Part shown: positions 23,797 to 58,607 of the stretch, in pieces
Numbering within the stretch: the first letter of the stretch is position 1
How the letters are laid out: the number at the start of each line of letters is the position of its first letter
DNA from: Candidatus Nealsonbacteria bacterium
GTDB lineage: Bacteria; Patescibacteriota; Minisyncoccia; Minisyncoccales; MHMH01
NCBI GenBank assembly: GCA_016188865.1
Contig: JACPGX010000001.1
Coordinates: 205,197-269,196, forward strand
Direction: 5' to 3'
DNA: 64,000 bases
Notes under the pieces: generated by a model
What the model was told of the DNA's origin: nothing
Seen by the model: the letters and a program-made list of their open reading frames with translations, nothing else
Databases searched by the model: none
Program-made: the position numbers and the translations under genes

Positions 23797-23973
23797 TTTC
23801 CGCCTCCCTTAATCTACCCGCGAGACCGCAGTGATTTGAAGGCGCATAAAGCGCCTTGCCGCGAAGAGTCCTGGGATTCTTAATCCCATACCCGGCCTTC
23901 TAGACTTAAAGTATCGTCCAGAATACCACTCGCGAGCAGGTTAAGGAAAGGGAAATTTTGACAAGTTGCTAAC
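23797..23973 (-). promoter_or_regulatory. ~175-nt GC-rich structured 5' leader of the NUDIX operon (candidate riboswitch or regulatory RNA, unclassified)
   Basis: 8-bp closing helix CUCGCGAG/CUCGCGGG encloses three hairpins, including GGGAUU-AAG-AAUCCC and AAGGCGC-UUUAU-GCGCCUU. The RBS AAGGGAGG follows directly. Confidence 0.4.
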
Positions 23974-24009
23974 TGTGTACTATATATCACATATAGATGG
24001 AAAAGTCAA
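23958..24009. promoter_or_regulatory. Face-to-face promoters sharing one palindromic -10 box: TTGACA-17-TATATA-17-AGTCAA
   Basis: Plus strand: -35 at 23958-63 and -10 at 23981-86, driving mfd (ATG 23997). Minus strand: -35 is revcomp of 24004-09 with the same -10, driving the NUDIX leader. Confidence 0.55.
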
Positions 24010-32701: not shown

Positions 32702-32784
32702 GGGCGAGTGGTGGAATGGCAGACACGATGGATTCAAAATCCATTGAGCGCAAGCTCATGAGAGTTCGACTCTCTCCTCGCCCA
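32702..32784 (+). tRNA. tRNA-Leu (anticodon CAA), class II, no encoded CCA
   Basis: Acceptor GGGCGAG/CUCGCCC plus discriminator A. Anticodon arm AUGGA-UUCAAAA-UCCAU. Long variable arm GAGC-GCAA-GCUC. T arm GAGAG-UUCGACU-CUCUC. Confidence 0.92.
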
Positions 32785-34648: not shown

Positions 34649-35154
34649 ATGGTTAAATCAATAACTTTTGATGGTTTGGCTTTTTTAAGATTGCCAGCAT
34701 CAACCGCCAAGTCGGGCTGATGCCTTTTGCCTTCAAATTGTTTTATCACTTCTTTAATTTTCGTTGAAGCCGGCTGGCCTGATATATTCGCCGAAGTTTC
34801 CGCCAAAGGGCCCGTGTGCTTGACTAAGTCAAGCACAAATTTATAGTTAGGAATGCGAATACCGGGCTTTTTATAATGAAAAACCGCTGTCACCGGCCCC
34901 GGCCAAACTCGTTTAAGAAATTTTTCCTGTCTGGGATTGATCTCGGCTAATTTTTTAGCCATTTTGATATCGCTGACAAAAATAGGTATCAATTTATTTT
35001 TGGGCCTCTTTTTTATTTTATATAATCTTGCAACCGCTTCTTTATTCCCGGCATCGCAAATCAACCCGTAAACTGTATCGGTGGGACAAATAATCACTTT
35101 GCCCTCCTTTATGGCCTTAATTACTTTTTTAAGATTTGGCTTGGTAATCTCCAT
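34621..35154 (-). CDS. tsaC: L-threonylcarbamoyladenylate synthase (TsaC/YrdC/Sua5 family)
   Basis: PTDTVYGL and SANISG. Confidence 0.9.
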   Translation of the reverse strand: MEITKPNLKKVIKAIKEGKVIICPTDTVYGLICDAGNKEAVARLYKIKKRPKNKLIPIFVSDIKMAKKLAEINPRQEKFLKRVWPGPVTAVFHYKKPGIRIPNYKFVLDLVKHTGPLAETSANISGQPASTKIKEVIKQFEGKRHQPDLAVDAGNLKKAKPSKVIDLTIWPPKILRY

Positions 35155-35184
35155 ATTATTAAATTTAACCTATTTTCTTGAAAC

Positions 35185-35207
35185 AAAAAAGAGGAGCTAT
35201 GCTCCCC
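35185..35207 (-). terminator. Terminator of the small-ORF pair
   Basis: GGGGAGC-AUA-GCUCCUC followed by U6. The stop codon lies in the loop. Confidence 0.6.
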
Positions 35208-35418
35208 TTCTGATTGCTCTATACTCTCTATACTGCTCAAGCTTGCCTATAAGCTCTTTTAACTGCGAATGACTAATCACCCCATATTGATTGCCGCCAC
35301 CCCTGATTACGCGACTACTCTCTTCTATGAGAGCGTGAATTATTGCCTCAAGTTCTTCTTCTGTCGGGACAACAGCTCCATCCTTTAGCCAACTGCCAAC
35401 ACTAGGAATTATCAACAT
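35197..35418 (-). CDS. Hypothetical 73-aa protein
   Basis: AAGGAGG RBS. No family recognised. Confidence 0.55.
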   Translation of the reverse strand: MLIIPSVGSWLKDGAVVPTEEELEAIIHALIEESSRVIRGGGNQYGVISHSQLKELIGKLEQYREYRAIRRGA

Positions 35419-35435
35419 TTTCCACCTCCTTCTTT

Positions 35436-35708
35436 TTAATAATTTCCGAAAAGAGTATCTTCGTCAAGACCTCTTTTTTTTATTTCATCTCGAACCGCAA
35501 AAACATCGCATTCATGACAATACCCCGGCGTACGAATGCCGCAATAAACTTCCAAACAACCATCAAGCCAGCAGGGCGCCTCTCTATGGCTTACTGCATT
35601 AACCCATATCCACCAACAAGCTTTAGAGCAAGTTGGATGGTAATCTCGGTTGATAAATTCGCTCTTGCAAATAGGGCATCTATCTATCTGGCCAATAGCG
35701 CTCCTCAT
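35436..35708 (-). CDS. Hypothetical Cys-rich 90-aa protein (12 Cys)
   Basis: CPIC..C..C..C patterns. More GC-rich than the neighbouring genes. Confidence 0.55.
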   Translation of the reverse strand: MRSAIGQIDRCPICKSEFINRDYHPTCSKACWWIWVNAVSHREAPCWLDGCLEVYCGIRTPGYCHECDVFAVRDEIKKRGLDEDTLFGNY

Positions 35709-35740
35709 TATGCCGCCTTCATTTTCAAAATACCAAAGTG

Positions 35741-35769
35741 ATTATAGAAAACTTAATGCTTCTTGTCAA
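35741..35769 (-). promoter_or_regulatory. Consensus promoter TTGACA-17-TATAAT
   Basis: -35 is revcomp of 35764-69, inside the 3' end of the upstream CDS. -10 is revcomp of 35741-46. Confidence 0.7.
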
Positions 35770-38745: not shown

Positions 38746-40337
38746 AGTTGATTAATTATATCATCCGGAGTAAACGGCCTCCCGTCGTACTTTAAAATCT
38801 TATTTTTAATCGTAATGCCGGTTTCTTCTTTGATAACATCAGCCAAGGAGCCCGTAACGCTATTTTCTACCAAAACAACCTTCTTGGCCTGCCTGCCGGT
38901 AGGCATGGATTTTTTGATTTCTTTAGCAACTTTTTCTGCCGGGAAAGGTTTTAAATAAGAAATCTGCATAAATCTAAAATTCTTTATTTGGGGTAAGGCA
39001 TCTAGAATCGCGCCCTTAGTTGAACCGTGACTAATAAGCAAATTACTTCCTTTGCCATAAACAGAAATCGGATTTAATTTATCAATCTCTTTTTTAAGAT
39101 AAGGCAATTTTTTAAATCTTTTATCCTGCATTTTAACTGCCCCAGCAGAATCTTCAATGGTATAGCCATATTCATTATGCTCATAGCTATTTGCCCTAAC
39201 CACAAAGTTGCCTTGTCCCGGAACAGCTCTTGGAGAAATGCCATTCGGCGTTAAAGCATAGGGCCTGTAATCTTCCTGCGGATTTTCCACGATAAAGCGA
39301 TCAATCGGCAAAGATGACTTTGCTATTTCATCAAAAGTATAATTGCTTTCAGCCAAATGCTTATCCGATAAAAGAATAACGGGGATTCTATATTTATTGG
39401 ACAGATAAAAAGCCTCCTGGGTTCTGATCACGGCCTCTTGTGCGTCACCCGGAGATAAAACCACCCTCAAAAATTCCCCATGTCCGGCGTTTAAAGCGAA
39501 CTTCAAATCTCCCTGACCAGTATGGGTAGCTAATCCGGTTGCAGGAGCCGGCCTCTGCCCTAAATAAATTACCAAAGGAAGTTCGGTCATAGCTGCCAAG
39601 CTCAATCCTTCGGTCATTAAAGCAAAACCGCCGCCCGAAGTCCCGACCATAGCTTTAGCTCCCGCGAATGAAGCCCCCAAGGCGGCATTAATAACTGCAA
39701 TTTCATTTTCCGGCTGAAAAACCAAGATATTATTTTCCAGCTGCCTCTTGGCCAAAAAATGGAGCACGGGACTAGCCGGAGTCATGGGATAAGCTAAATA
39801 AATATCCATGCCAGCGGCTATTGCTCCAATGCCTATGGCTTCCGTGCCGGAAATAAAACACTTAGGTTTTAATTTTTTAAGTTTTTCTTTTTCAGAGTCC
39901 AATTGATAACCCTCTTGAATTGATTTTTTTACCAAGTCGGCGTTTTTACCGAATGTTTTTTCTGCGGCTGCAAAAAGAATATTTAAATCCACTCCGAAAT
40001 ATTTGAAAAGCAGGCCGATTAGAATATTGTTAGCTAAAATTTTCGGCTCCGTTTCTTTGGCTTTAAAAACCAAACCGCTTTGTTTTAAATCTTTCTTGTG
40101 AATATCAACTGTTTTTTGGTCTAAAGCCAAAATAAAATCATATTTATATTCGTGGGAATAAACCGGCTTATCAGAAATTTTCAGAATATTAAAATTATGC
40201 CCTCCCCTGATTAAGGAGGGATAATCTCGGTAATTAAAAACGTAATATCCCAAACTAGTAAAAATTTTCCCGACAAAATGCGAGGTAACAGCCGTGCCCA
40301 GCCCCGCCTCCCCGCCGATGAGAATCGTTTTTTGCAT
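38742..40337 (-). CDS. korA: 2-oxoacid:ferredoxin oxidoreductase, fused gamma-alpha subunit
   Basis: Gamma-like N-terminus GEAGLG, then alpha-subunit YPMTPAS. Start trimmed to MQKTILIGG (ATG 40335-40337). Confidence 0.85.
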   Translation of the reverse strand: MQKTILIGGEAGLGTAVTSHFVGKIFTSLGYYVFNYRDYPSLIRGGHNFNILKISDKPVYSHEYKYDFILALDQKTVDIHKKDLKQSGLVFKAKETEPKILANNILIGLLFKYFGVDLNILFAAAEKTFGKNADLVKKSIQEGYQLDSEKEKLKKLKPKCFISGTEAIGIGAIAAGMDIYLAYPMTPASPVLHFLAKRQLENNILVFQPENEIAVINAALGASFAGAKAMVGTSGGGFALMTEGLSLAAMTELPLVIYLGQRPAPATGLATHTGQGDLKFALNAGHGEFLRVVLSPGDAQEAVIRTQEAFYLSNKYRIPVILLSDKHLAESNYTFDEIAKSSLPIDRFIVENPQEDYRPYALTPNGISPRAVPGQGNFVVRANSYEHNEYGYTIEDSAGAVKMQDKRFKKLPYLKKEIDKLNPISVYGKGSNLLISHGSTKGAILDALPQIKNFRFMQISYLKPFPAEKVAKEIKKSMPTGRQAKKVVLVENSVTGSLADVIKEETGITIKNKILKYDGRPFTPDDIINQL

Positions 40338-40543
40338 AATACAACTAATTCCTATATTACCACTTTTCTTCCAAAATAAAAAGTGTGCGACACTCGGTGT
40401 CGCACGCTTATATTTCAACCCACGAAGTTGAAGATTTTACGAAAATTGTGCTTTATCGTGGCAGCAGCCGTTATCAAGCAATACGAGTATTTTCTTTTAC
40501 AATACTAGTGTTATGAGTTGTTCAAAATATTTTACATAAACCG

Positions 40544-40858
40544 CTATAATTTCCTCGGGGAATTCTTCCGGATATTCATCTTTATTAAATTTTTATTAAA
40601 TTTCCTCAATGCAGTCTCCAAATACTTCGCCGCTTCTTCTAATTTTTCAAGATCTTCTAGATTATTTTTATCTCGCAAAATCTTCTCCGCTGCTTCGGTA
40701 AATATAGAAACATCTCTTAAAAATCTTTTGCCCTTTCCGTCAGGAAGTTTTTTATCCATATCGCCTAATACTGTGTATTTTTGGCTATCGCTTTTTGCTC
40801 TTTCAAGTCTATCGACCGCCATTTTTAATACCTGTCCTTCTGTCTTTTGTTTAACCAC
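40544..40858 (-). CDS. Hypothetical helical 104-aa protein (GTG start)
   Basis: AGGAGG lies 5 nt upstream of the GTG. The plus-strand ORF 40518-40916 is judged to be its shadow. Confidence 0.5.
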   Translation of the reverse strand: MVKQKTEGQVLKMAVDRLERAKSDSQKYTVLGDMDKKLPDGKGKRFLRDVSIFTEAAEKILRDKNNLEDLEKLEEAAKYLETALRKFNKNLIKMNIRKNSPRKL

Positions 40859-40955
40859 TTTTGCCTCCTCATGTACTGCTATCCTATACCCAAACTTTTT
40901 AAAGAAATGGCGTTAGCTCGGAAGTGCGCAACGCTCGGTATCGCATACGTCATTT

Positions 40956-41168
40956 TTAAGGAAGCCTTGCTTCATTAAAAATAATAATCTCTTCTTTTAA
41001 GGCAAACCAATCACCTGTGCGTCTTTTTTTGTCTCTAATTTCTTGAATAAACACTTCGGCTTCTTTGCGAGCTTCTCGCCTTGATTTGGCGTTTAGTTTT
41101 TTCCGCACATCTATTACAGTCGCGCCGCCATAATATTGATAACAAAGGTAGTATGACTTATTTTCCAT
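40956..41168 (-). CDS. Hypothetical 70-aa protein
   Basis: AAGGAGGGAG RBS. Confidence 0.5.
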   Translation of the reverse strand: MENKSYYLCYQYYGGATVIDVRKKLNAKSRREARKEAEVFIQEIRDKKRRTGDWFALKEEIIIFNEARLP

Positions 41169-41347
41169 TTCTCCCTCCTTATTTATTCCAATGATCTAAT
41201 CGTAGCCTATCAAACCTCAAAATAAAAATCAAGCGTATAAATAGTGTACACCCCGCGGGAATGCACACTATTATTTATTCTTACTCATATTTTTAGCCCT
41301 GTGGATAACCTCTTGCTTGACACGAGCTTATGTGCTATAATAAGGAT

Positions 41348-41405
41348 GTAGGAGAAATCCTACTAATCACGCGGTCCCGCCTAAAGCGGGATTTTCGCTT
41401 TTTAT
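41348..41405 (+). ncRNA. Candidate ~58-nt antisense sRNA overlapping the 3' end of the NYN gene
   Basis: Promoter TTGCTT-17-TATAAT (41313-41341). Hairpin GUAGGA-GAAA-UCCUAC. Terminator CCCGC-CUAAA-GCGGG with a U-rich tail found only on the plus strand. Confidence 0.3.
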
Positions 41406-42080
41406 ATAACCCCTCTTTCCTGTATAAAATTTACCGAAATCAATATATTTATCTTTAATGCGATGCAACTCCCCTGCCACCATATCGCGTACTCCAACCA
41501 CGTAAATATTTTTTCCCCTTACTTTTAGACGCTCTAATGGCGCGACCAAATCGGAATCACCAGAAAAAAGCATAACTGCCGTTATTTTTTCCGCATCGTC
41601 TAACATATCCATTGTCATCTCAACATCAAAATTACATTTTGGCTCCTCGAGAATTATTCCAGATTTTTGCAACTCATCTATCAACTCGTAAATTTTCTCT
41701 TTAACTTTTCCATCAAATAAAGTCATGGTACGACGCTGAAAAAACAATGCTTCATCAATGTCTTTCTTAATAAATTTCATAACTTTTGGCGGATTTGGTC
41801 TCAAAATTGCTCCAGTCTTTTTTATGCGATTATGAAATGCTTCAGAATTTTCCCTATCCCTTTCATTCAATCCGTAATACACCTTTACCTCTTTAATGTT
41901 TGGGAAAGTAAAAAGTTGCCCAACTACGTCTTCTATTCTAAATCTCCAGCCCAAAACATCTTGCCAATGAAACATATTAGTTAAATCCAAATATACAAAA
42001 ATAGATGTTTCCTTGTTTATCCAATCTAAATAATCTCTTCTGACTATAAAATTATTTTTAATATTTTGAGGTATATCCAT
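41367..42080 (-). CDS. NYN-domain (LabA/DUF88-like) putative RNase
   Basis: FSGDSDLVAPLERLK..GKNIYVVG. Confidence 0.75.
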   Translation of the reverse strand: MDIPQNIKNNFIVRRDYLDWINKETSIFVYLDLTNMFHWQDVLGWRFRIEDVVGQLFTFPNIKEVKVYYGLNERDRENSEAFHNRIKKTGAILRPNPPKVMKFIKKDIDEALFFQRRTMTLFDGKVKEKIYELIDELQKSGIILEEPKCNFDVEMTMDMLDDAEKITAVMLFSGDSDLVAPLERLKVRGKNIYVVGVRDMVAGELHRIKDKYIDFGKFYTGKRGYIKSENPALGGTA

Positions 42081-42162
42081 AATGTTCAGTTCCCCTTATC
42101 TTAACAAATAGAAAATCCGGATTCAACCGGAAGAAAATAGATCTACTATTACCATCCCCAAT

Positions 42163-42383
42163 AAAAAAAGAAACCCCTGAATGCTCTTTTGAGCTATTCA
42201 GGGGGGCTTCTTCTCGGGGCCCCTATTACTCTCTTGCACAGCGGGGCCAGAAGACCGTGCAAGATATACCTGTTAAAGTCTTTCCCCGCAGACCGGTAGA
42301 CGTCTTACGAGAATACCCCTGTCAAAATCCTCTTTGCATGCCGGGGAACGCATTGCTCGAGTGGTGTCCTTCTCTATCTTTAC
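42163..42383 (-). ncRNA. ~220-nt GC-rich structured RNA of unknown class (free sRNA, or terminator-controlled leader of the NYN gene)
   Basis: Own promoter and intrinsic terminator (CCCCCCUGAAU..AUUCAGGGG plus a U-run). Internal CUUGCAC/GUGCAAG helix and pseudoknot-capable GGCCCC/GGGGCC and UCUUCU/AGAAGA pairs. Confidence 0.55.
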
Positions 42384-42389
42384 TATAAC

Positions 42390-42418
42390 AGTATAGCATG
42401 GAACTCAAATTCTGTCAA
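42390..42418 (-). promoter_or_regulatory. Promoter TTGACA-17-TATACT
   Basis: -35 is revcomp of 42413-18 and -10 is revcomp of 42390-95. Confidence 0.7.
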
Positions 42419-42443
42419 TAGGCCTATCGTACGAGGGTGCACA

Positions 42444-44255
42444 CTATTCTACGGTGACGGATTTGGCTAGGTTACGAGGCTTGTCTACATCGCAGCCGCG
42501 AAGGACGCCCATGTGGTAAGCGAAAAGCTGGAGAGGAATGACGCTTAAAATGGGGGTGAGCATTTCCAATGTTTTGGGGATATAAATGACATCGTTAGCC
42601 AATTTTTTAATTCCCTCATCGCCCTCGGTGGCAATAACAATAATTTTTCCTTTGCGGGCTTTGATTTCCTCTATGTTTGATATATTTTTTTCGTAAACCG
42701 AATCGGCTGGAGCAATGACTATAGTGGGGAAATTTTCATCAATCAAAGCGATGGGACCGTGCTTCAATTCGCCGGCTCCGTAACCTTCAGCGTGAATGTA
42801 GGATATTTCTTTTAGTTTTAAAGCGCCCTCTAAAGCAACGGGATAATTATATTTTCTGCCAAGATAGAAAAAATTATTATAGTCCTTATATTTCTCGGCT
42901 AATTTTTTAATTTGAACGCTGGTACTCAAAACTGTTTTTATCAATCCCGGCAAAAGCTGAAGCTCTTTGGCGATTCTTTGGCCCGTGACAACTGAAAGTT
43001 CTTTTTGCCTGCCAAGGTATAAAGTTAAAAGCGCTAAAATTGCCAATTGGGAGGTGAAGGCCTTGGTGGAAGCCACGCCAATTTCCGCGCCGGCCCGATT
43101 GTAAACACCGGCATCGGTTTCTCTGGCCACAGAAGAACCAACCATATTAACAATTCCCATGGTTTGCACGCCTTTTCTTTTTGCTTCTTTGAGAGCAGCT
43201 AAAGTATCGGCAGTTTCTCCAGATTGGGAAATCGCCAAAACCGCTGTTTTTTTATCGAAAATCGGCTTTCTGTAACGGAATTCCGAGGCTAAATCCACAT
43301 CGGTTGAAATGCCGGCATATTCTTCCAGCATGTACTCGCCTACCAAGCCGGCATGATAAGCAGTGCCGCAGGCGATAATATCAATGCTATCAATTTCTCG
43401 AAGTTTTTCTTTGACTGATTCAAGCCCGCCAAGCCTGGCAGCTCCCTGATTAGTTAGCACCCTGCCTTTAAGGGCGTTATCAATGGTTTCTGACTGCTCC
43501 ATAATTTCTTTAAGCATAAAATGAGGAAAACCTTTTTTCTGGGCATCTTCCGATTCTATTTCCAGAAGCTCCGGCTGCTTTTCTCTTAGAATAAGCAAAT
43601 CGTTTGGAGTAATAACTGCTATTTCATTATCATCCAAATTAACTACTTTTTTAGCATAAGGAGCTATGGCATTGGCGTCAGATGCGACGAGGTATTCCTT
43701 TTTGCCGGTAATGCCGATTAAAAGAGGGCTGGAAAGCCGGGCTACTACAATTTTCCCCGGATCTTTTTTGGCAATAATGGCTAAGGCGTAAGCGCCTCTA
43801 ACCTGCCTCAAGGCCTTTCTAACTGCTTCCTCTAAATTTTTATGAAAAAATTTCTCAATTAAATGAGCTACGACTTCAGTATCTGTTTCAGAACTGAAAA
43901 CGTGGCCTTCTTTTTCCAGGCCTTCTTTCAACTCGCGATAATTTTCAATAATCCCATTGTGAACAAGCCAAATGTTGCCATGGCAATCGGAATGAGGATG
44001 GGCATTGGCTTCAGTTACGCCGCCGTGAGTTGCCCATCTTACGTGCCCAAGGCCAAAAGTGCCTTCAATGTTGCAATCTTTTAGTTTATTTTCTAATGCA
44101 TCAAGTTTTCCTACTGCTTTTAAGCAAATGGTTTTATCGTTATCAAAAATAACAAGACCCGAGGAATCATATCCCCGGTAGCTTTCTCGCTGAAGCCCAT
44201 TAATCAAAATGGGCACAGCTTTCTGTTTTCCCAAATAACCGACTATCCCGCACAT
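42444..44255 (-). CDS. glmS: Glutamine--fructose-6-phosphate aminotransferase
   Basis: MCGIVGY N-terminal nucleophile and two SIS domains. Start set to the Met directly preceding Cys. Confidence 0.96.
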   Translation of the reverse strand: MCGIVGYLGKQKAVPILINGLQRESYRGYDSSGLVIFDNDKTICLKAVGKLDALENKLKDCNIEGTFGLGHVRWATHGGVTEANAHPHSDCHGNIWLVHNGIIENYRELKEGLEKEGHVFSSETDTEVVAHLIEKFFHKNLEEAVRKALRQVRGAYALAIIAKKDPGKIVVARLSSPLLIGITGKKEYLVASDANAIAPYAKKVVNLDDNEIAVITPNDLLILREKQPELLEIESEDAQKKGFPHFMLKEIMEQSETIDNALKGRVLTNQGAARLGGLESVKEKLREIDSIDIIACGTAYHAGLVGEYMLEEYAGISTDVDLASEFRYRKPIFDKKTAVLAISQSGETADTLAALKEAKRKGVQTMGIVNMVGSSVARETDAGVYNRAGAEIGVASTKAFTSQLAILALLTLYLGRQKELSVVTGQRIAKELQLLPGLIKTVLSTSVQIKKLAEKYKDYNNFFYLGRKYNYPVALEGALKLKEISYIHAEGYGAGELKHGPIALIDENFPTIVIAPADSVYEKNISNIEEIKARKGKIIVIATEGDEGIKKLANDVIYIPKTLEMLTPILSVIPLQLFAYHMGVLRGCDVDKPRNLAKSVTVE

Positions 44256-44262
44256 CATATTC

Positions 44263-44292
44263 ATAATAGCTATTTATAGCCGCCGCTGTCAA
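44263..44292 (-). promoter_or_regulatory. glmS promoter TTGACA-18-TATTAT, implying a leaderless mRNA
   Basis: The -10 box ends 5-8 nt before the ATG-ATG-TGC start. No SD and no room for a glmS ribozyme. Confidence 0.5.
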
Positions 44293-49245: not shown

Positions 49246-49806
49246 TTACGCCTCCTTTAAAGGTTGAGCCAGCTCATAAGCTTCCTTGGTCGCCTCAATG
49301 TTTTCTTTTTTATATGCCGGAATTTTTTCTTGAATAATCTCTATTAAATCAGCGAGACTAAAAAGATTGGTCATTTTAGCAAAGGCTCCCAGCATGATGG
49401 TATTTAACCTATTCAAGTTATGATATCTGGCAATGGCTGAAGCATTAAATGCCACTACTCTGTAGCCGGGGTATAAACGAGATAAATCTTGAGATGTCTT
49501 GCGGCTGTTAACAATCAAACAACCCGAAGGCTTCAAATTATCTTTCAAATCCCTGGTCTTTAAAAGATCTGCTCCTAAAACTATGAAATAGTCGGCTTGC
49601 TTTATTTGGCACTTCAATCGTATGGGTTTTGAATCAGATCTGACGAAGCCTTCGACCGGTTGACCAATTCTTTCTGAACCAAAAAAGGGGAAACACTGAA
49701 GGCTGTATTCTTTATCACCTAACGCCCTAAAAAGAGCCTCGGCTAAAATTTCTGAAGCTAACCTAGTGCCTTTTCCGCCGCGCCCAAAAATCGTTATTTC
49801 TATCAT
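49246..49806 (-). CDS. 2-oxoacid:ferredoxin oxidoreductase gamma subunit, second OFOR
   Basis: IFGRGGKGTRLASEILA. Confidence 0.85.
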   Translation of the reverse strand: MIEITIFGRGGKGTRLASEILAEALFRALGDKEYSLQCFPFFGSERIGQPVEGFVRSDSKPIRLKCQIKQADYFIVLGADLLKTRDLKDNLKPSGCLIVNSRKTSQDLSRLYPGYRVVAFNASAIARYHNLNRLNTIMLGAFAKMTNLFSLADLIEIIQEKIPAYKKENIEATKEAYELAQPLKEA

Positions 49807-49851
49807 TTATCAAAGACCTCCTTATTCAATTAACAAAGGACTCATCTTTTC

Positions 49852-49880
49852 AAGATAGTCCCTGCAATTTTTAATGTCAA
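49852..49880 (-). promoter_or_regulatory. OFOR-operon promoter TTGACA-17-TATCTT
   Basis: -35 is revcomp of 49875-80 and -10 is revcomp of 49852-57. An AAGGAGG RBS follows. Confidence 0.6.
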
Positions 49881-50045
49881 CTATCTGGGAAAATCTCTAA
49901 AAAATTGCTCGGCTTTCCTCGACAGGACTCGAGATAAGTCGCTTAAAACAAGTAAAAAGCTACCACTGAATAATTTTGTTGGTAGCTTTATTTTCTTCTT
50001 TAAGATATTGGTCTCTTAAAATACTCCGTTATCCTTTCAAAATTT

Positions 50046-50444
50046 TCATCTCCAGCGCGGATTTTCCTCTCCTGAAGCCTTTATCTTGGCGTTTTCTTTA
50101 TCCCCCCTTAAACGACTTTCTATTGATATCCCTTCAATATAATATGACTCGCCTCTGTCATGCGGCTCCAGTTTAGCATTCCATGAGATTATTTCTAATT
50201 CGGGATGGGCTTTTTCAAAGGCATCGAGAACTAAAAATACTGTCTCGTAGTAATCCGACCACTCATAAGTCCGAACATGCATGGGCAGAAATGTGCGATT
50301 TCCTACGGTGATGCCGGCTTTTAGATTTATTGATCCTTTGAAAAAAACGCTAGAATTTTCGTTTTCTTGAACGCAAGCTATTAAGCCGGCCGTTAAAACG
50401 ATCAGGATGGCGAAGAAAAGAATAACGCTCCTTCTTGTAATCAC
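50046..50444 (-). CDS. Small membrane-anchored or secreted protein (GTG start)
   Basis: AAGGAGG RBS and signal anchor. Promoter TTGACG-16-TATAAT upstream. Confidence 0.55.
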   Translation of the reverse strand: MITRRSVILFFAILIVLTAGLIACVQENENSSVFFKGSINLKAGITVGNRTFLPMHVRTYEWSDYYETVFLVLDAFEKAHPELEIISWNAKLEPHDRGESYYIEGISIESRLRGDKENAKIKASGEENPRWR

Positions 50445-50576
50445 CTTTTCCTCCTTTACCCCCTTATTCCTTTATTTGTTAAATCAATGTATTATACGCC
50501 CATATAAATATCCGTCAACACCCAGCATTTATTTACTTCAAAAATACTCAAAAAGCTACCCGGCAAAAAACTGACG

Positions 50577-50607
50577 AAAACTGACGAGAACCGTTCTCGT
50601 CAGTTTT
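50577..50607. repeat. REP-3 hairpin, 3'-flank copy (aaaactgacgagaac-c-gttctcgtcagtttt)
   Basis: Ends one base before the RAYT-3 stop codon. Preceded by a partial duplicate, ctgacgaaaa. Confidence 0.9.
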
Positions 50608-51333
50608 TTATTCGATGGCAACACGTTGAGAATCAGCTAATTCTTTTTTGAACTGAAGCCAATCGTTAACGAATCTTTGCCCTTCGCCCGCTCCGCCGAC
50701 TGTTTCAAATAAAAACTCTCTGCTGGTTACTGAAGGAAAATTCCTCTTGCCTAAATAGTCAGAATAACTTGACCATCGGTAATTTTCTAAAAATTCTATT
50801 ATTTCTTGCAATTTCCTGCCGCTAATTCCCCTTTCCTTCCAATTCTGAACTAAAATTGCCACTGGGTTTGTATGAATATAAACGAAAACTGTTATTAATT
50901 GTTTATCATCTTTAACGTGGACTATTTTATATTTTCCCTGAAACAGGTGGCCACTTCTTTTATATTTTTTATTATAATATCCGCCGTATCCCGCCCCAAT
51001 TTTTCTCATAAACTTGCTTATTCCTCCATTTCTTAACTGTCTTACCAGCAGATGCGCGTGATTCGGCATCAAACAAAACGCTAAAATCTCCAATAAACAT
51101 TCCCTGCCCGTATGTCTTTTATACGAACTATCTAAACTGACGAGAACGGTTCTCGTCAGTTTTTGTTCTTGACGATAGTATGAAGAAGTAGGTTTTTCAT
51201 CATTGAATTCAAATAAATCATGAATCATTCTAAAATAATCTTTTTGATCTTTGAAAAGCTTTAACCCTTCTACGGCTCTAATAACGATGTGATAAATTTC
51301 GCCGTTTACTAATGGTGGTCGTTTTATTGGCAT
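50608..51333 (-). CDS. REP-associated tyrosine transposase-like protein (IS200/Y1 HUH family), paralog 3
   Basis: GEIYHIVIRA, FCLMPNHAHLLV, VYIHTNP. Confidence 0.85.
   Translation of the reverse strand: MPIKRPPLVNGEIYHIVIRAVEGLKLFKDQKDYFRMIHDLFEFNDEKPTSSYYRQEQKLTRTVLVSLDSSYKRHTGRECLLEILAFCLMPNHAHLLVRQLRNGGISKFMRKIGAGYGGYYNKKYKRSGHLFQGKYKIVHVKDDKQLITVFVYIHTNPVAILVQNWKERGISGRKLQEIIEFLENYRWSSYSDYLGKRNFPSVTSREFLFETVGGAGEGQRFVNDWLQFKKELADSQRVAIE
51134..51162. repeat. REP-3 hairpin, internal in-frame copy (centre g)
   Basis: aaactgacgagaac-g-gttctcgtcagttt, translated KLTRTVLVSL. Confidence 0.9.
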
Positions 51334-55914: not shown

Positions 55915-55966
55915 GTATTTTCAAAGTACCGCATCTAATGACTTCTAACACGAAGAAAAAACTCGG

Positions 55967-55996
55967 TCAACAAAAAAGGACGCTAGGCGTCCTTTG
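55967..55996 (-). terminator. Terminator/-35 cassette, copy 1 (caacaaaaaaggacgctaggcgtcctttg)
   Basis: On the minus strand this reads AAAGGACGC-CUA-GCGUCCUUUUUU, followed directly by GTTGAC. Confidence 0.75.
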
Positions 55997-56004
55997 GTTA
56001 TTGT

Positions 56005-56163
56005 TCATCTTTTAACCGGAACGGGCACTTTTTCGGGCATTGGCGTTTTTTCCGGTACGGGGCTCGAAGGCTCCGGTTTGGTTCTGGGAACTCTTCTGGG
56101 AATTCTTACCGGTTCTTCTGTAGGAATAGTTTCCCTACGGTTATTTTCTGCGGAATCAAGCAT
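56005..56163 (-). CDS. Pro-rich 52-aa ORF (not in the supplied ORF track)
   Basis: AGGAGG lies 6 nt upstream of ATG 56161-63. The ATG overlaps the upstream stop (AATGCTTGA). Terminator lies 10 nt downstream. Confidence 0.4.
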   Translation of the reverse strand: MLDSAENNRRETIPTEEPVRIPRRVPRTKPEPSSPVPEKTPMPEKVPVPVKR

Positions 56164-57586: not shown

Positions 57587-57590
57587 CAAA

Positions 57591-57621
57591 AAAACTGACG
57601 AGAACCATTCTCGGCAGTTTT
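57591..57621. repeat. REP-3 hairpin, solo degenerate copy (two mismatches) acting as a terminator
   Basis: aaaactgacgagaac-c-attctcggcagtttt. Confidence 0.8.
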
Positions 57622-57670
57622 AATTATTTATAAAGGCACTCTAAAATTCATTTAAGGAGGGTTGCTACTG

Positions 57671-57958
57671 CTACCACCCAGAGTTGCTGCTGCTACTACC
57701 CCAAAAATAAACGTCACTAAGTTTTATTATTACGAAGGATATAAGACTGCTAAAAAAAGAAATGCCTCCGACGAATATTATGATATTACTTATGTTATGG
57801 AGAAGTTCGCTCTGGAACATGAACCTTAATACTGCGCCCACACCAATCAGGAATACATTTGAAAATATCAAGATATAAAATATCTTATCTATCTTCTTGT
57901 TCATCCTCTTATAGTTCTCGTAAATTTGCCGTGATTCTTCATCAATTTCATGGGCCAT
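57671..57958 (-). CDS. Small 2-TM membrane protein (95 aa)
   Basis: AAGGAGGTG RBS. Promoter TTGACA-17-TAAGAT at 58004-58032. Confidence 0.6.
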   Translation of the reverse strand: MAHEIDEESRQIYENYKRMNKKIDKIFYILIFSNVFLIGVGAVLRFMFQSELLHNISNIIIFVGGISFFSSLISFVIIKLSDVYFWGSSSSNSGW

Positions 57959-58041
57959 ATTATATTCACCTCCTTTTTAATGTGCCGCATAATTATAGAG
58001 TACATCTTAGTTCAACGCAAAAAATCTGTCAAGACATCGTA

Positions 58042-58087
58042 TTACGAGACCCGGACTCGTAAAAAATTACGAGTCCGGATCTCGTAA
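58042..58087. repeat. Inverted REP doublet (REPIN-like): ttacgag-acccgga-ctcgtaa / ttacgag-tccggat-ctcgtaa
   Basis: The two hairpins are reverse complements of each other apart from one base. Their stems equal the REP-2 stem. Confidence 0.8.
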
Positions 58088-58104
58088 AACTAGCGGAAAC
58101 CGAA

Positions 58105-58134
58105 ACAACAAAAAAGGACGCTAGGCGTCCTTTG
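58105..58134 (-). terminator. Terminator cassette, copy 2
   Basis: Hairpin identical to copy 1. The -35 part is degenerate (TTGTTG). Confidence 0.7.
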
Positions 58135-58185
58135 ATTGTTTATTCTACTGATCGAGAGTATTTGGCGGCCTTTTGTTTTTACCCT

Positions 58186-58500
58186 TCAGTCAACCAAGGC
58201 TCTTCGGCTTCGATGGCGTCCCAATAAATCGTACAATTTCTGAATTGGTTTTGAAAAAAATCGGAACCCCCTATCTCTTAATTCAATCTCTCTCCCCTCA
58301 TTCTCAACGCGCAGGCACAAATCCGGGGAGGTAGATACCCAGCCACAAATACTTTCACCATGGTAGTATCTCAACGACAAACCATAACCTTCAAATTCGG
58401 TATGCCACACATCAGACCACGCGTCACCCCCTCGAAGCCACTGAAGTTCTCCGCTCCTAGTTTTTTCAATGACCATCTTCAGTAGTCTTGAATTATTCAT
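58186..58500 (-). CDS. Hypothetical 104-aa protein
   Basis: GAGGAGGAG RBS. Promoter TTGACA-17-TATATT at 58536-58564. Confidence 0.55.
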   Translation of the reverse strand: MNNSRLLKMVIEKTRSGELQWLRGGDAWSDVWHTEFEGYGLSLRYYHGESICGWVSTSPDLCLRVENEGREIELRDRGFRFFSKPIQKLYDLLGRHRSRRALVD

Positions 58501-58577
58501 TCTCTCCTCCTCTCATTTTTTTTACACCATATGACAATATATACCCATTCATTGAATATGTCAAATCGAATGGAATC

Positions 58578-58607
58578 GTCAACAAAAAAGGACGCTAAGC
58601 GTCCTTT
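58578..58607 (-). terminator. Terminator/-35 cassette, copy 3 (loop taa); contains the etfA stop codon
   Basis: The 5' arm encodes the EtfA C-terminus ..TKDA. GTTGAC follows. Confidence 0.75.

What the first reader, a model, noticed from the sequence alone, without database searches (positions are those of the whole stretch)
42163..42418. Promoter-to-terminator ~220-nt GC-rich RNA of no class I can recognise, upstream of an NYN-domain RNase gene
A near-consensus promoter (TTGACA-17-TATACT) lies 25 nt downstream of the glmS stop. It is followed by ~220 nt that is much more GC-rich than its surroundings and ends in a strong intrinsic terminator (CCCCCCUGAAU..AUUCAGGGG plus U-run). The NYN gene starts ~85 nt after the terminator. 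Inside are a 7-bp helix CUUGCAC/GUGCAAG, whose loop (UCUUCUGGCCCC) can pair with the downstream GGGGCC..AGAAGA, and this overlaps the terminator's 5' arm. That is a classic pseudoknot versus terminator alternative. It is therefore either a free sRNA or a riboswitch-like attenuator for the NYN RNase. A 26-codon ORF (AUGCGUUCC..) also exists but has only a weak RBS.
Basis: seen in the sequence. Interest (0 to 1): 0.7.

Follow-up and report, generated by a model that had tools for sequence, protein, structure and literature searches.

The report
Orphan promoter-to-terminator RNA before NYN gene
A strong promoter and a strong terminator really do bracket about 220 bases of GC-rich non-coding DNA between glmS and an NYN nuclease gene in a Nealsonbacteria (CPR) genome, but it matches no known RNA family, has no relative where looked, and folds no better than shuffled sequence apart from its terminator, so it is probably a species-specific terminated leader or small RNA, not a riboswitch.

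Summary
The element lies on the minus strand. In detail: TTGACA-17-TGcTATACT starts 25 nt after the glmS stop, followed by about 220 nt at 52% GC, a -21.6 kcal/mol hairpin with a U-tract, and the NYN start 82 nt later. Rfam gives nothing, even at E<=10.

Three results cut against a riboswitch-like class:
- No homologue turned up upstream of 81 NYN orthologues, downstream of glmS in 12 relatives, or anywhere in about 0.69 Mb of related loci (nhmmer, covariance model). Most NYN orthologues have no room for a leader.
- Without the terminator, the 178-nt body folds no better than shuffles (z=-0.05).
- The proposed pseudoknot strand does not overlap the terminator stem; both sit in one MFE fold.

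A different competitor exists. CAGGGG (42321-42316) can hold the CCCCUG base of the terminator's 5' arm, which is marginally unusual (4% of shuffles).

The unit sits in a lineage-specific 2.1-kb insertion between glmS and the POR gene.

My best reading is a real, non-coding, species-specific transcription unit acting in cis as a terminated leader and insulator. The main rival is a stand-alone sRNA. Non-syntenic homologues are not excluded, because collection scans by RNA sequence were few and exact-match only. Interest is low to moderate.

The parts
42413..42418 (-). -35 hexamer TTGACA, 25 nt after the glmS stop
42390..42398 (-). Extended -10 TGcTATACT with a 17-nt spacer. The predicted TSS is A42384 or G42383.
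   Evidence: The TSS is inferred from spacing only.
42163..42384 (-). Predicted non-coding transcript of about 220 nt at 52% GC
   Evidence: No Rfam match. No coding signal.
42336..42356 (-). Hairpin A, GCAAUGC-GUUCCCCG-GCAUGC, with a C-rich loop. The loop GUUCCCC is complementary to the NYN SD region GGGGAAC, but this is not significant.
42316..42321 (-). CAGGGG, the 5' strand of a closing helix (P1-like). It pairs with CCCCUG at 42204-42199 and duplicates the CAGGGG of the terminator's 3' arm.
   Evidence: P(paired)=0.93-0.98 before the 3' arm is made, and 4% of shuffles reach this.
42284..42312 (-). Hairpin B (UCUCGU..GAC-loop-GUC..GCGGGG)
   Evidence: z=-1.8
42233..42263 (-).
   Evidence: (-13.7 kcal/mol, z=-1.7)
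42209..42223 (-). GGGGCCCCGAGAAGA, the partner of the loop UCUUCUGGCCCC (42254-42243). It ends 4 nt before the terminator stem.
42174..42204 (-). Intrinsic terminator T1 stem-loop: 13 bp with one bulge, loop AAAA, -21.6 kcal/mol
   Evidence: z=-6.2; pair probabilities 0.84-1.0
42160..42173 (-). U-tract UUUCUUUUUUUAUU of T1
42106..42131 (-). Second, weak terminator-like hairpin T2: UCCGGUUGAAUCCGGA plus UUUUCUAUUU, -7.9 kcal/mol
42098..42126 (-). Weak promoter-like site TTGAAT-17-TAAGAT (8/12) between T1 and NYN. It may be NYN's own promoter.
   Evidence: Read from the sequence. Several orthologues have a -10 box 7-9 nt before the ATG. This is an inference.
42090..42097 (-). SD-like AAGGGGAA upstream of the NYN ATG
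   Evidence: Orthologues mostly lack an SD.
41367..42080 (-). NYN/LabA-family gene (237 aa)
42444..44264 (-). glmS. The annotated start is probably M4 at 44255. There is no terminator of its own before T1.
42438..42448 (-). AATAGTGTGCA copy 1, overlapping the glmS stop codon
41240..41272 (-). Hairpin AATAGTGTGCA-uucccgcgggg-UGUACACUAUU after NYN. Its 5' arm is copy 2 of the 11-mer, so the two copies bracket RNA+NYN.
   Evidence: (p about 0.01, post hoc)
40335..42443 (-). Lineage-specific insertion (RNA, NYN, orf70, orf104) between glmS and the POR gene

Best explanation
This is a real, non-coding, lineage-specific transcription unit on the minus strand, running from about 42384 to about 42163.

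Where it sits: it heads a roughly 1.2-kb [promoter-RNA-terminator-NYN] module. That module lies in a 2.1-kb insertion between glmS and the POR gene of one Candidatus Nealsonbacteria species.

Most likely mechanism, acting in cis:
1. The near-consensus extended -10 promoter fires.
2. The nascent RNA closes a 123-nt multi-branch domain with the helix CAGGGG(42321-42316)/CCCCUG(42204-42199). This transiently holds the base of the terminator's 5' arm.
3. The much more stable T1 hairpin with its U-tract then ends most transcripts, releasing a roughly 220-nt RNA.
4. T1 also stops glmS read-through, because glmS has no terminator of its own here.
5. The minority of transcripts that pass T1 and the weak T2 carry the SD-bearing NYN message.

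Shown: the promoter and terminator signals, the lack of coding signal, the lack of any known family, the lack of conservation at syntenic sites, and the insertion context.

Inferred: transcription itself, the TSS, partial read-through, and any modulation of read-through. Nothing indicates ligand sensing.
For: - Promoter: 11/12 with TG, one of six such sites in 64 kb against 1.2 expected. The other five precede ORFs.
- Terminator: -21.6 kcal/mol, z=-6.2, with a U-tract.
- No other promoter at >=9/12 lies between T1 and NYN. NYN here has an SD that its orthologues lack, which fits translation from a leadered read-through mRNA.
- Relatives place a hairpin terminator directly after the glmS stop, whereas the window has none before T1.
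- Before the 3' arm is made, CCCCUG of the 5' arm is paired to CAGGGG with P about 0.93-0.98. Only 4% of shuffled bodies reach this. The closed 123-nt domain has z=-1.8.
- RNA+NYN are bracketed by an 11-nt direct repeat, one copy at the glmS stop and the other forming the 5' arm of a terminator-like hairpin.
- The backbone glmS->POR is conserved in relatives with a variable spacer.
- Non-coding: no protein hit in any frame, and codon usage of the 26-codon ORF is -0.05 bits/codon against +0.2 to +0.3 for the island's genes.
Against: - No conservation: none of 81 NYN orthologues carries it, and most have 2-200 nt before NYN. It is therefore not a general way of controlling this gene.
- T1 is strong, and a second hairpin follows, so read-through may be negligible.
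- A weak TTGAAT-17-TAAGAT site after T1, together with leaderless-type orthologue promoters, suggests NYN may not need the upstream promoter. That would favour a stand-alone RNA.
- The antiterminator-like helix and the domain z-score are marginal (p about 0.04-0.05), post hoc and not independent.
- The 11-nt repeat is near chance for the whole 2.2-kb region (about 0.6 expected).
- There are no expression data.
Confidence: 0.4

Rival explanations
1. It is a stand-alone, trans-acting small RNA. It has its own strong promoter, shares its terminator with the upstream glmS mRNA in the manner of 3'-UTR-type sRNAs, and is insulated from NYN by T1 and T2. C-rich loops (GUUCCCCG, CUGGCCCCGC) would pair with G-rich Shine-Dalgarno regions of target mRNAs.
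For: - Strong promoter and strong terminator with nothing coding between them.
- A second hairpin and a possible NYN-proximal promoter after T1.
- Typical 5' UTRs behind the other strong promoters in this window are 0-45 nt, not about 300 nt.
- C-rich motifs fall in predicted hairpin loops.
Against: - No homologue was found anywhere it could be searched.
- Complementarity to the NYN translation start is not better than shuffles: -18.3 kcal/mol, and 9% of shuffles do as well. NYN is not the best target among the window's genes either.
- No chaperone or target evidence exists.
Confidence: 0.25
2. The body is a sequence relic. It would be GC-rich DNA carried in by the insertion, for example the decayed 3' end of a donor gene together with its terminator. 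The RNA sequence itself would have no function, and only the promoter (for NYN) and T1 (for glmS) would matter.
For: - The region is an insertion relative to a conserved glmS->POR backbone.
- Homology with the closest NYN orthologue starts exactly at the NYN start codon.
- The body folds no better than shuffles, z=-0.05.
- Minus frame -1 reads into a stop inside the terminator's 5' arm, as gene ends often do.
- There is no conservation.
Against: - There is no protein similarity in any frame. Power is low for 20-40-residue fragments.
- The neighbouring NYN gene is 34% GC. If the body shared NYN's AT-rich origin, a non-coding stretch would be expected to be AT-rich rather than 52% GC unless constrained or recently acquired from elsewhere.
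- A consensus promoter placed 300 nt and two terminators away from the gene it would serve is an odd arrangement.
Confidence: 0.17
3. It is a ligand- or protein-responsive attenuator, riboswitch-like or autoregulated by the NYN RNase. Binding to the 123-nt domain (42321-42199) would stabilise the CAGGGG/CCCCUG closing helix, block T1 and switch NYN on.
For: - It has the right architecture: same strand, a 5' position, a terminator before the ORF, and a closing helix whose 3' strand is the base of the terminator's 5' arm.
- It is a GC-rich IGR in a 40% GC genome.
Against: - No Rfam family matches, even at E<=10.
- No conserved aptamer: it is absent from all 81 orthologue leaders.
- The statistical signals are marginal.
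- The terminator state is 14.9 kcal/mol more stable.
Confidence: 0.1
4. It encodes a small protein: the 26-codon ORF at 42353-42273, or a decayed leaderless ORF open from the TSS.
For: - The AUG lies 31 nt from the predicted TSS, within the 25-45 nt UTR range of other strong promoters here.
- The frame is open from the TSS (GUA AAG AUA ...), which is one substitution away from a GUG start.
Against: - There is no usable SD. The AAGGA lies 13 nt upstream of the AUG.
- There is no AUG or GUG at the TSS.
- Codon usage is -0.05 to -0.13 bits/codon, against +0.2 to +0.3 for real genes nearby.
- No homologue exists among 5.8 billion proteins at E<=10.
- Gene callers did not call it in 5 assemblies.
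Confidence: 0.03

Closest known systems
Rho-independent transcription attenuators and riboswitch expression platforms in 5' leaders
   Same: A promoter, a long structured leader and a strong intrinsic terminator precede the ORF on the same strand. An upstream segment (CAGGGG) duplicates part of the terminator's 3' arm and can hold the 5' arm.
   Different: There is no conserved sensor domain, no Rfam family and no covariation. Orthologous genes have no such leader. The competitor helix is only 6 bp against a 13-bp terminator (ddG 14.9 kcal/mol).
3'-UTR-type sRNAs with their own promoter that share the terminator of the upstream mRNA (the DapZ or MicL type, recalled from the literature and not tested here)
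   Same: The promoter sits just after the upstream gene's stop. The transcript ends at the only terminator available to that gene (glmS).
   Different: The promoter lies outside the CDS. No conservation, no target and no chaperone are known, and the element sits in an inserted segment.
Type III toxin-antitoxin loci (ToxIN-like): promoter, antitoxin RNA, terminator, endoribonuclease gene
   Same: The linear order is the same: promoter, short non-coding RNA, intrinsic terminator, nuclease gene.
   Different: The RNA has no tandem repeats. The nuclease is an NYN/LabA protein that is highly conserved and occurs without any such RNA in 81 other genomes.
GC-rich intergenic regions used to discover structured ncRNAs in AT-rich genomes (the GC-IGR approach, from general knowledge)
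   Same: It is a 363-nt ORF-free gap, among the longest and most GC-rich in the window.
   Different: Candidates of that kind are validated by covariation. Here no homologue is available, and folding energy is at shuffle level once the terminator is removed.

Membership tests
Any Rfam family (riboswitches, T-box, 6S, SRP, RNase P, tmRNA, group I intron, known sRNAs) | Covariance-model score at or near the family's gathering threshold | tested here: not met
   The only gathering-score hit is tRNA-Leu at 32702. At E<=10 on 42000-42500 there are six chance-level hits at 13-21 bits against gathering scores of 35-77. The whole window at E<=0.5 gives only the tRNA. ARAGORN finds nothing here.
Riboswitch-like or regulated attenuator | Conserved sensor domain upstream of orthologous genes, with covarying helices | tested here: not met
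   nhmmer and CM R1 find nothing in 81 NYN orthologue loci. In most of them the gap before NYN is 2-200 nt.
Riboswitch-like or regulated attenuator | Mutually exclusive terminator and antiterminator structures | tested here: inconclusive
An alternative CAGGGG/CCCCUG helix does compete, with P=0.98 before the 3' arm and 4% of shuffles as high. This is marginal and post hoc.
Riboswitch-like or regulated attenuator | Lies in the 5' leader of the regulated gene on the same strand, with the terminator before the ORF | tested here: met
Type III toxin-antitoxin (ToxIN-like) | Antitoxin RNA made of tandem direct repeats | tested here: not met
   TRF and the repeat finder find no repeats in 42160-42420.
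Type III toxin-antitoxin (ToxIN-like) | Toxin gene always accompanied by its RNA | tested here: not met
   NYN orthologues at 65-86% identity lack the RNA.
Trans-acting sRNA | Own promoter and intrinsic terminator, non-coding | tested here: met
Trans-acting sRNA | Target complementarity above chance, and demonstrated expression | tested here: inconclusive
   The duplex with the NYN start region is -18.3 kcal/mol, and 9% of shuffles are as good. Expression is not testable with these tools.
tRNA gene interrupted by a group I intron (common in Patescibacteria, PMC13011429) | tRNA halves flanking a group I core | tested here: not met
   There is no Intron_gpI or tRNA hit at E<=10. No tRNA-like ends appear in the sequence.
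Small protein gene | ORF with a start signal, gene-like codon usage, and homologues | tested here: not met

The most novel reading that the evidence does not exclude
The 123-nt domain closed by CAGGGG/CCCCUG (42321-42199) is the sensor of a new, so far single-member attenuator. It would gate read-through into an NYN nuclease gene that is among the most conserved proteins of Parcubacteria. Alternatively, the roughly 220-nt RNA is a dedicated RNA partner or substrate of that nuclease. Either case would make it one of the first regulatory RNAs described for CPR bacteria.
Probability: 0.08. Interest if true: 0.6.

Novelty: new member of a known kind. Interest (0 to 1): 0.25.

Why it matters
To my knowledge, regulatory RNAs of CPR/Patescibacteria are almost unexplored; two literature searches turned up only work on their introns. 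These genomes are streamlined, with about 92% of this window in ORFs. A 363-nt GC-rich non-coding gap with consensus signals therefore deserved a check.

The outcome is mainly cautionary:
- The excess folding stability comes from the terminator, while the high GC content is a property of the body itself.
- The element is confined to one species and sits in an insertion hot spot.
- The one mechanistic detail offered, pseudoknot versus terminator, does not hold.

If expression data later show regulated read-through, it would be a rare example of a newly arisen attenuator on a highly conserved nuclease gene. Without that, it is an ordinary orphan transcription unit.

Tried and rejected
- **Known RNA families:** Rfam at gathering score and at E<=10 gave nothing.
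- **tRNA or tmRNA:** ARAGORN found none here. I rejected a tRNA with a group I intron (lead from PMC13011429), because there is no intron or tRNA signal.
- **Conserved NYN leader:** I fetched 80 genome loci plus the closest orthologue. nhmmer, blastn-short and CM R1 were all negative.
- **Conserved element after glmS:** 12 relatives at 79-88% glmS identity, some with 10-kb flanks, were negative.
- **Phage or plasmid origin:** blastn against phages and plasmids found no match. NYN and orf104 have no relatives in viral contigs. A 17-mer gave 2 chance hits in 68% GC phages.
- **JGI metagenome scan:** the 20-mer GGGGAAAGACTTTAACAGGT gave one chance hit, in a terminase gene.
- **Coding remnant or spurious-ORF homologues:** the 101-codon open frame on the plus strand had 0 hits against 1.84 billion representatives. 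All minus-strand frames had 0 hits at E<=10 against 5.8 billion proteins. Six-frame tblastn against the loci gave only chance hits.
- **Type III TA:** there are no tandem repeats.
- **Defence or phage annotation of island genes:** only generic NYN matches turned up.
- **Anti-SD pairing of GUUCCCC with the NYN SD:** not significant.
- **Mobile-element ends:** there are no convincing terminal inverted repeats. I record the 11-nt direct repeat bracketing RNA+NYN but do not rely on it.
- **Assembly artefact:** rejected, because the region is identical in at least five Logan assemblies that span the RNA region (three shorter contigs cover only the orf70/orf104 side).

Full report
**1. What is there**

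glmS (42444-44264), the candidate RNA and the NYN gene (41367-42080) are all on the minus strand. The NYN product matches Pfam NYN at E=4e-16. It is 100% identical to a protein of a Candidatus Nealsonbacteria MAG, so the window comes from a CPR/Patescibacteria genome.

The -35 TTGACA (42418-42413) begins 25 nt after the glmS stop (TAG, 42446-42444). After a 17-nt spacer comes an extended -10, TGcTATACT (42398-42390), an 11/12 match. My own scan of the whole window finds only six sites at >=11/12, against 1.2 expected from Markov shuffles. The other five all lie directly upstream of ORFs in the right orientation, so matches of this quality behave as real promoters in this genome.

The predicted TSS is A42384 or G42383, which is an inference from spacing. 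About 220 nt downstream lies a canonical intrinsic terminator: CCCCUGAAUAGCUC-AAAA-GAGCAUUCAGGGG (42204-42174, -21.6 kcal/mol, z=-6.2), followed by UUUCUUUUUUUAUU. A weak second hairpin follows at 42131-42116 (-7.9 kcal/mol). The NYN ATG lies 82 nt after the U-tract.

The body is 52% GC in a 40% GC window, which is the 99th percentile of 200-nt windows. The 363-nt gap is one of the two longest ORF-free gaps in the window.

**2. Is it a known RNA?**

No. Rfam 15 at gathering score finds only a tRNA-Leu elsewhere in the window. At E<=10 on 42000-42500 there are six chance-level hits, to snoRNA, miRNA and rimP-leader models at 13-21 bits. The whole window at E<=0.5 again gives only the tRNA. ARAGORN finds no tRNA or tmRNA here.

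A literature lead was that Patescibacteria often hide tRNA genes behind group I introns (PMC13011429). It does not apply, because there is no intron or tRNA signal.

**3. Is it coding?**

No evidence says so.
- The 26-codon ORF (42353-42273) has only an AAGGA 13 nt upstream of the AUG, and its codon usage is -0.05 bits/codon. NYN, orf70 and orf104 next door score +0.21 to +0.30.
- A 101-codon stop-free frame on the opposite strand has no start codon and no hit among 1.84 billion representative proteins.
- All minus-strand frames give no hit at E<=10 among 5.8 billion proteins.
- Gene callers left the region empty in five assemblies.

**4. Conservation**

The NYN protein is unusually conserved, at 76-86% identity across Nealson-, Nomura-, Giovannoni-, Wolfe-, Colwell- and Uhrbacteria. 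That made orthologous loci easy to collect.
- I gathered 80 loci from species-representative genomes, plus the closest orthologue (86%).
- None contains anything similar to the 261-nt promoter-to-terminator region by nhmmer, by short-word blastn, or by a covariance model of the 123-nt core (the best foreign hits have E=0.64 and 3.1).
- In most orthologues NYN follows the preceding ORF after only 2-200 nt, so there is no room for such a leader.
- DNA similarity to the closest orthologue begins exactly at the NYN start codon.

Downstream of glmS, 12 relatives at 79-88% glmS identity also lack it.

The only copies found are 100% identical contigs of the same population in one sample series. These rule out an assembly artefact but give no variation. 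Phage and plasmid collections, viral contigs and one 20-mer scan of JGI metagenomes gave nothing but chance hits.

The limit of this result is as follows. The collection scans are exact-match and capped. What is excluded is a conserved leader of NYN or a conserved 3' element of glmS.

**5. Structure**

The full 226-nt RNA folds at -81.4 kcal/mol with z=-3.85, against -2.07 for the antisense strand. Without the terminator, the 178-nt body gives -50.0 kcal/mol against a shuffle mean of -49.8, so z=-0.05; the antisense value is +0.67. The excess stability is therefore the terminator. Individual helices are marginal, with z from -1.3 to -1.9.

The downstream partner GGGGCC..AGAAGA occupies 42223-42209, and the terminator stem starts at 42204. 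The MFE and MEA structures contain both. From standard pseudoknot geometry (an inference), a 2-nt loop cannot span the full 12-bp second stem, so at most the 6-bp GGCCCC/GGGGCC part could coexist with the 7-bp hairpin.

I did find a different competitor.
- Before the terminator's 3' arm is transcribed, CCCCUG (42204-42199) is predicted to pair with CAGGGG (42321-42316) at P=0.93-0.98. This closes a 123-nt three-branch domain.
- Only 4% of dinucleotide-shuffled bodies sequester the arm as well.
- The domain itself has z=-1.8.
- These signals are marginal, post hoc and not independent, and the terminator state is 14.9 kcal/mol more stable.

The 7-bp complementarity of the hairpin-A loop (GUUCCCC) to the NYN SD region (GGGGAAC) is not significant: 9% of shuffles do as well, and NYN is not the best target among the window's genes.

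**6. Context**

In Nealsonbacteria relatives the backbone is glmS -> POR alpha -> TPP_C -> CofD. The glmS-POR spacer varies widely between them:
- 4-10 nt in L089 and L090
- 86 nt in L101
- an opposite-strand 151-154-aa ORF in L105 and L106
- NUDIX plus an 81-aa ORF in L086

In the window the spacer (40335-42443) holds the RNA, NYN and two orphan ORFs of 70 and 104 aa. Neither orphan ORF accompanies NYN elsewhere.

Relatives have a hairpin terminator immediately after the glmS stop. The window has none before T1, so T1 must also end glmS transcripts (an inference).

An 11-nt direct repeat, AATAGTGTGCA, occurs at the glmS stop (42448-42438). It occurs again as the 5' arm of a terminator-like hairpin after NYN (41272-41240), so the two copies bracket RNA+NYN. 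Locally p is about 0.01, but the comparison was chosen post hoc, and about 0.6 such 11-mers are expected in the 2.2-kb region. It hints that RNA+NYN arrived as one module inserted into the old glmS terminator.

NYN orthologues mostly lack an SD, and several have a -10 box 7-9 nt before the ATG, which is a leaderless design. The window copy has an SD-like AAGGGGAA, and only a weak TTGAAT-17-TAAGAT (8/12) site after T1.

**7. Interpretation**

The promoter and terminator are too good, and too well placed, to be chance. There is nothing coding between them. A roughly 220-nt non-coding transcript is therefore the straightforward prediction.

My ranking of explanations:

| Explanation | Confidence |
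|---|---|
| Cis-acting terminated leader/insulator of an inserted NYN module. T1 releases most transcripts and also terminates glmS, and residual read-through provides the SD-bearing NYN mRNA. | 0.40 |
| Stand-alone trans-acting sRNA | 0.25 |
| Functionless GC-rich relic of the insertion, with only the promoter and T1 mattering | 0.17 |
| Regulated (riboswitch-like or NYN-autoregulated) attenuator using the CAGGGG/CCCCUG helix | 0.10 |
| Small protein gene | 0.03 |

The type III toxin-antitoxin analogy (promoter, RNA, terminator, RNase) fails on the defining tandem repeats. It also fails because the nuclease occurs without the RNA in 81 other genomes.

**8. Verdict**

It is best filed as a new, orphan member of a known kind, a species-specific terminated leader or sRNA. 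Interest is low to moderate (0.25). Expression data and a whole-genome homologue search would settle it.

Noticed in passing
window 41367-42080 (-); loci L001-L080, L091: The 237-aa NYN/LabA protein is 76-86% identical across many Parcubacteria classes and about 50-55% identical in Omnitrophota. That makes it more conserved than glmS, which is 66-70% identical between the same groups. Its gene neighbourhood is nonetheless different in almost every genome. No solved structure is closer than E=0.01 (2qip). It looks like an uncharacterised, near-essential CPR nuclease.
   Followed up: partly
L013, L020, L029, L035 and other NYN loci, 60 nt before the ATG: Most NYN orthologues have no Shine-Dalgarno sequence. 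Several have a -10-like box (TATAAT or TAAGAT) ending 7-9 nt before the ATG, suggesting leaderless or near-leaderless mRNAs. The window copy instead has AAGGGGAA.
   Followed up: partly
window 44263-44292 (-) and glmS start 44255: An 11/12 promoter (TTGACA-18-TATTAT) ends at 44263, about 7 nt before the annotated glmS start (M4, ATG 44255). glmS is therefore probably transcribed as a leaderless mRNA. No glmS ribozyme lies upstream. The gene after glmS in relative L087 is also leaderless by the same spacing.
   Followed up: partly
window 40335-42443; L086, L087, L089, L090, L095, L096, L101-L107: The spacer between glmS and the POR gene is a hot spot for lineage-specific insertions in Nealsonbacteria. 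Depending on the species, it holds nothing, 86 nt, an opposite-strand 151-aa ORF, NUDIX plus an 81-aa ORF, a 103-aa ORF plus a CDC48-like ATPase, or RNA+NYN+orf70+orf104. No transposase or integrase was seen.
   Followed up: partly
window 42438-42448 and 41240-41272: The 11-nt direct repeat AATAGTGTGCA occurs at the glmS stop codon and again as the 5' arm of a hairpin after NYN. This looks as if RNA+NYN were inserted into the former glmS terminator. Statistically it is borderline.
   Followed up: partly
window 35154-35753, 49806-50608, 57589-58595 (-): Three other near-consensus promoters, at 35769 (12/12), 50518 and 58564, fire into 600-1000-nt gaps. These gaps hold only small ORFs (73-132 aa) with no Pfam family reaching its curated cut-off (only sub-threshold zinc-ribbon and DUF4134 matches) and mostly weak codon-usage scores (-0.06 to +0.19 bits/codon). 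They may be orphan small proteins or further non-coding transcripts. There are no Rfam hits.
   Followed up: partly
window 23797-23996 and 55915-56155: Two more ORF-free gaps of 200-240 nt have raised GC (0.45-0.47) and no Rfam hit. I did not examine them.
   Followed up: no
window 42083-42385 (+): A 101-codon stop-free frame runs antisense across the whole RNA region. It has no start codon in its first 58 codons and no homologue in 1.84 billion proteins, so it is probably a by-product of the GC-rich composition.
   Followed up: yes
window 40544-40858 and 40956-41168 (-): orf104 and orf70 have good SD sequences and gene-like codon usage. They have no significant family match in Pfam, NCBIfam, PHROGs or PADLOC, and they are absent from the fetched related loci (none within the ≤4-kb flanks of 80 NYN loci or beside glmS in relatives).
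   Followed up: partly
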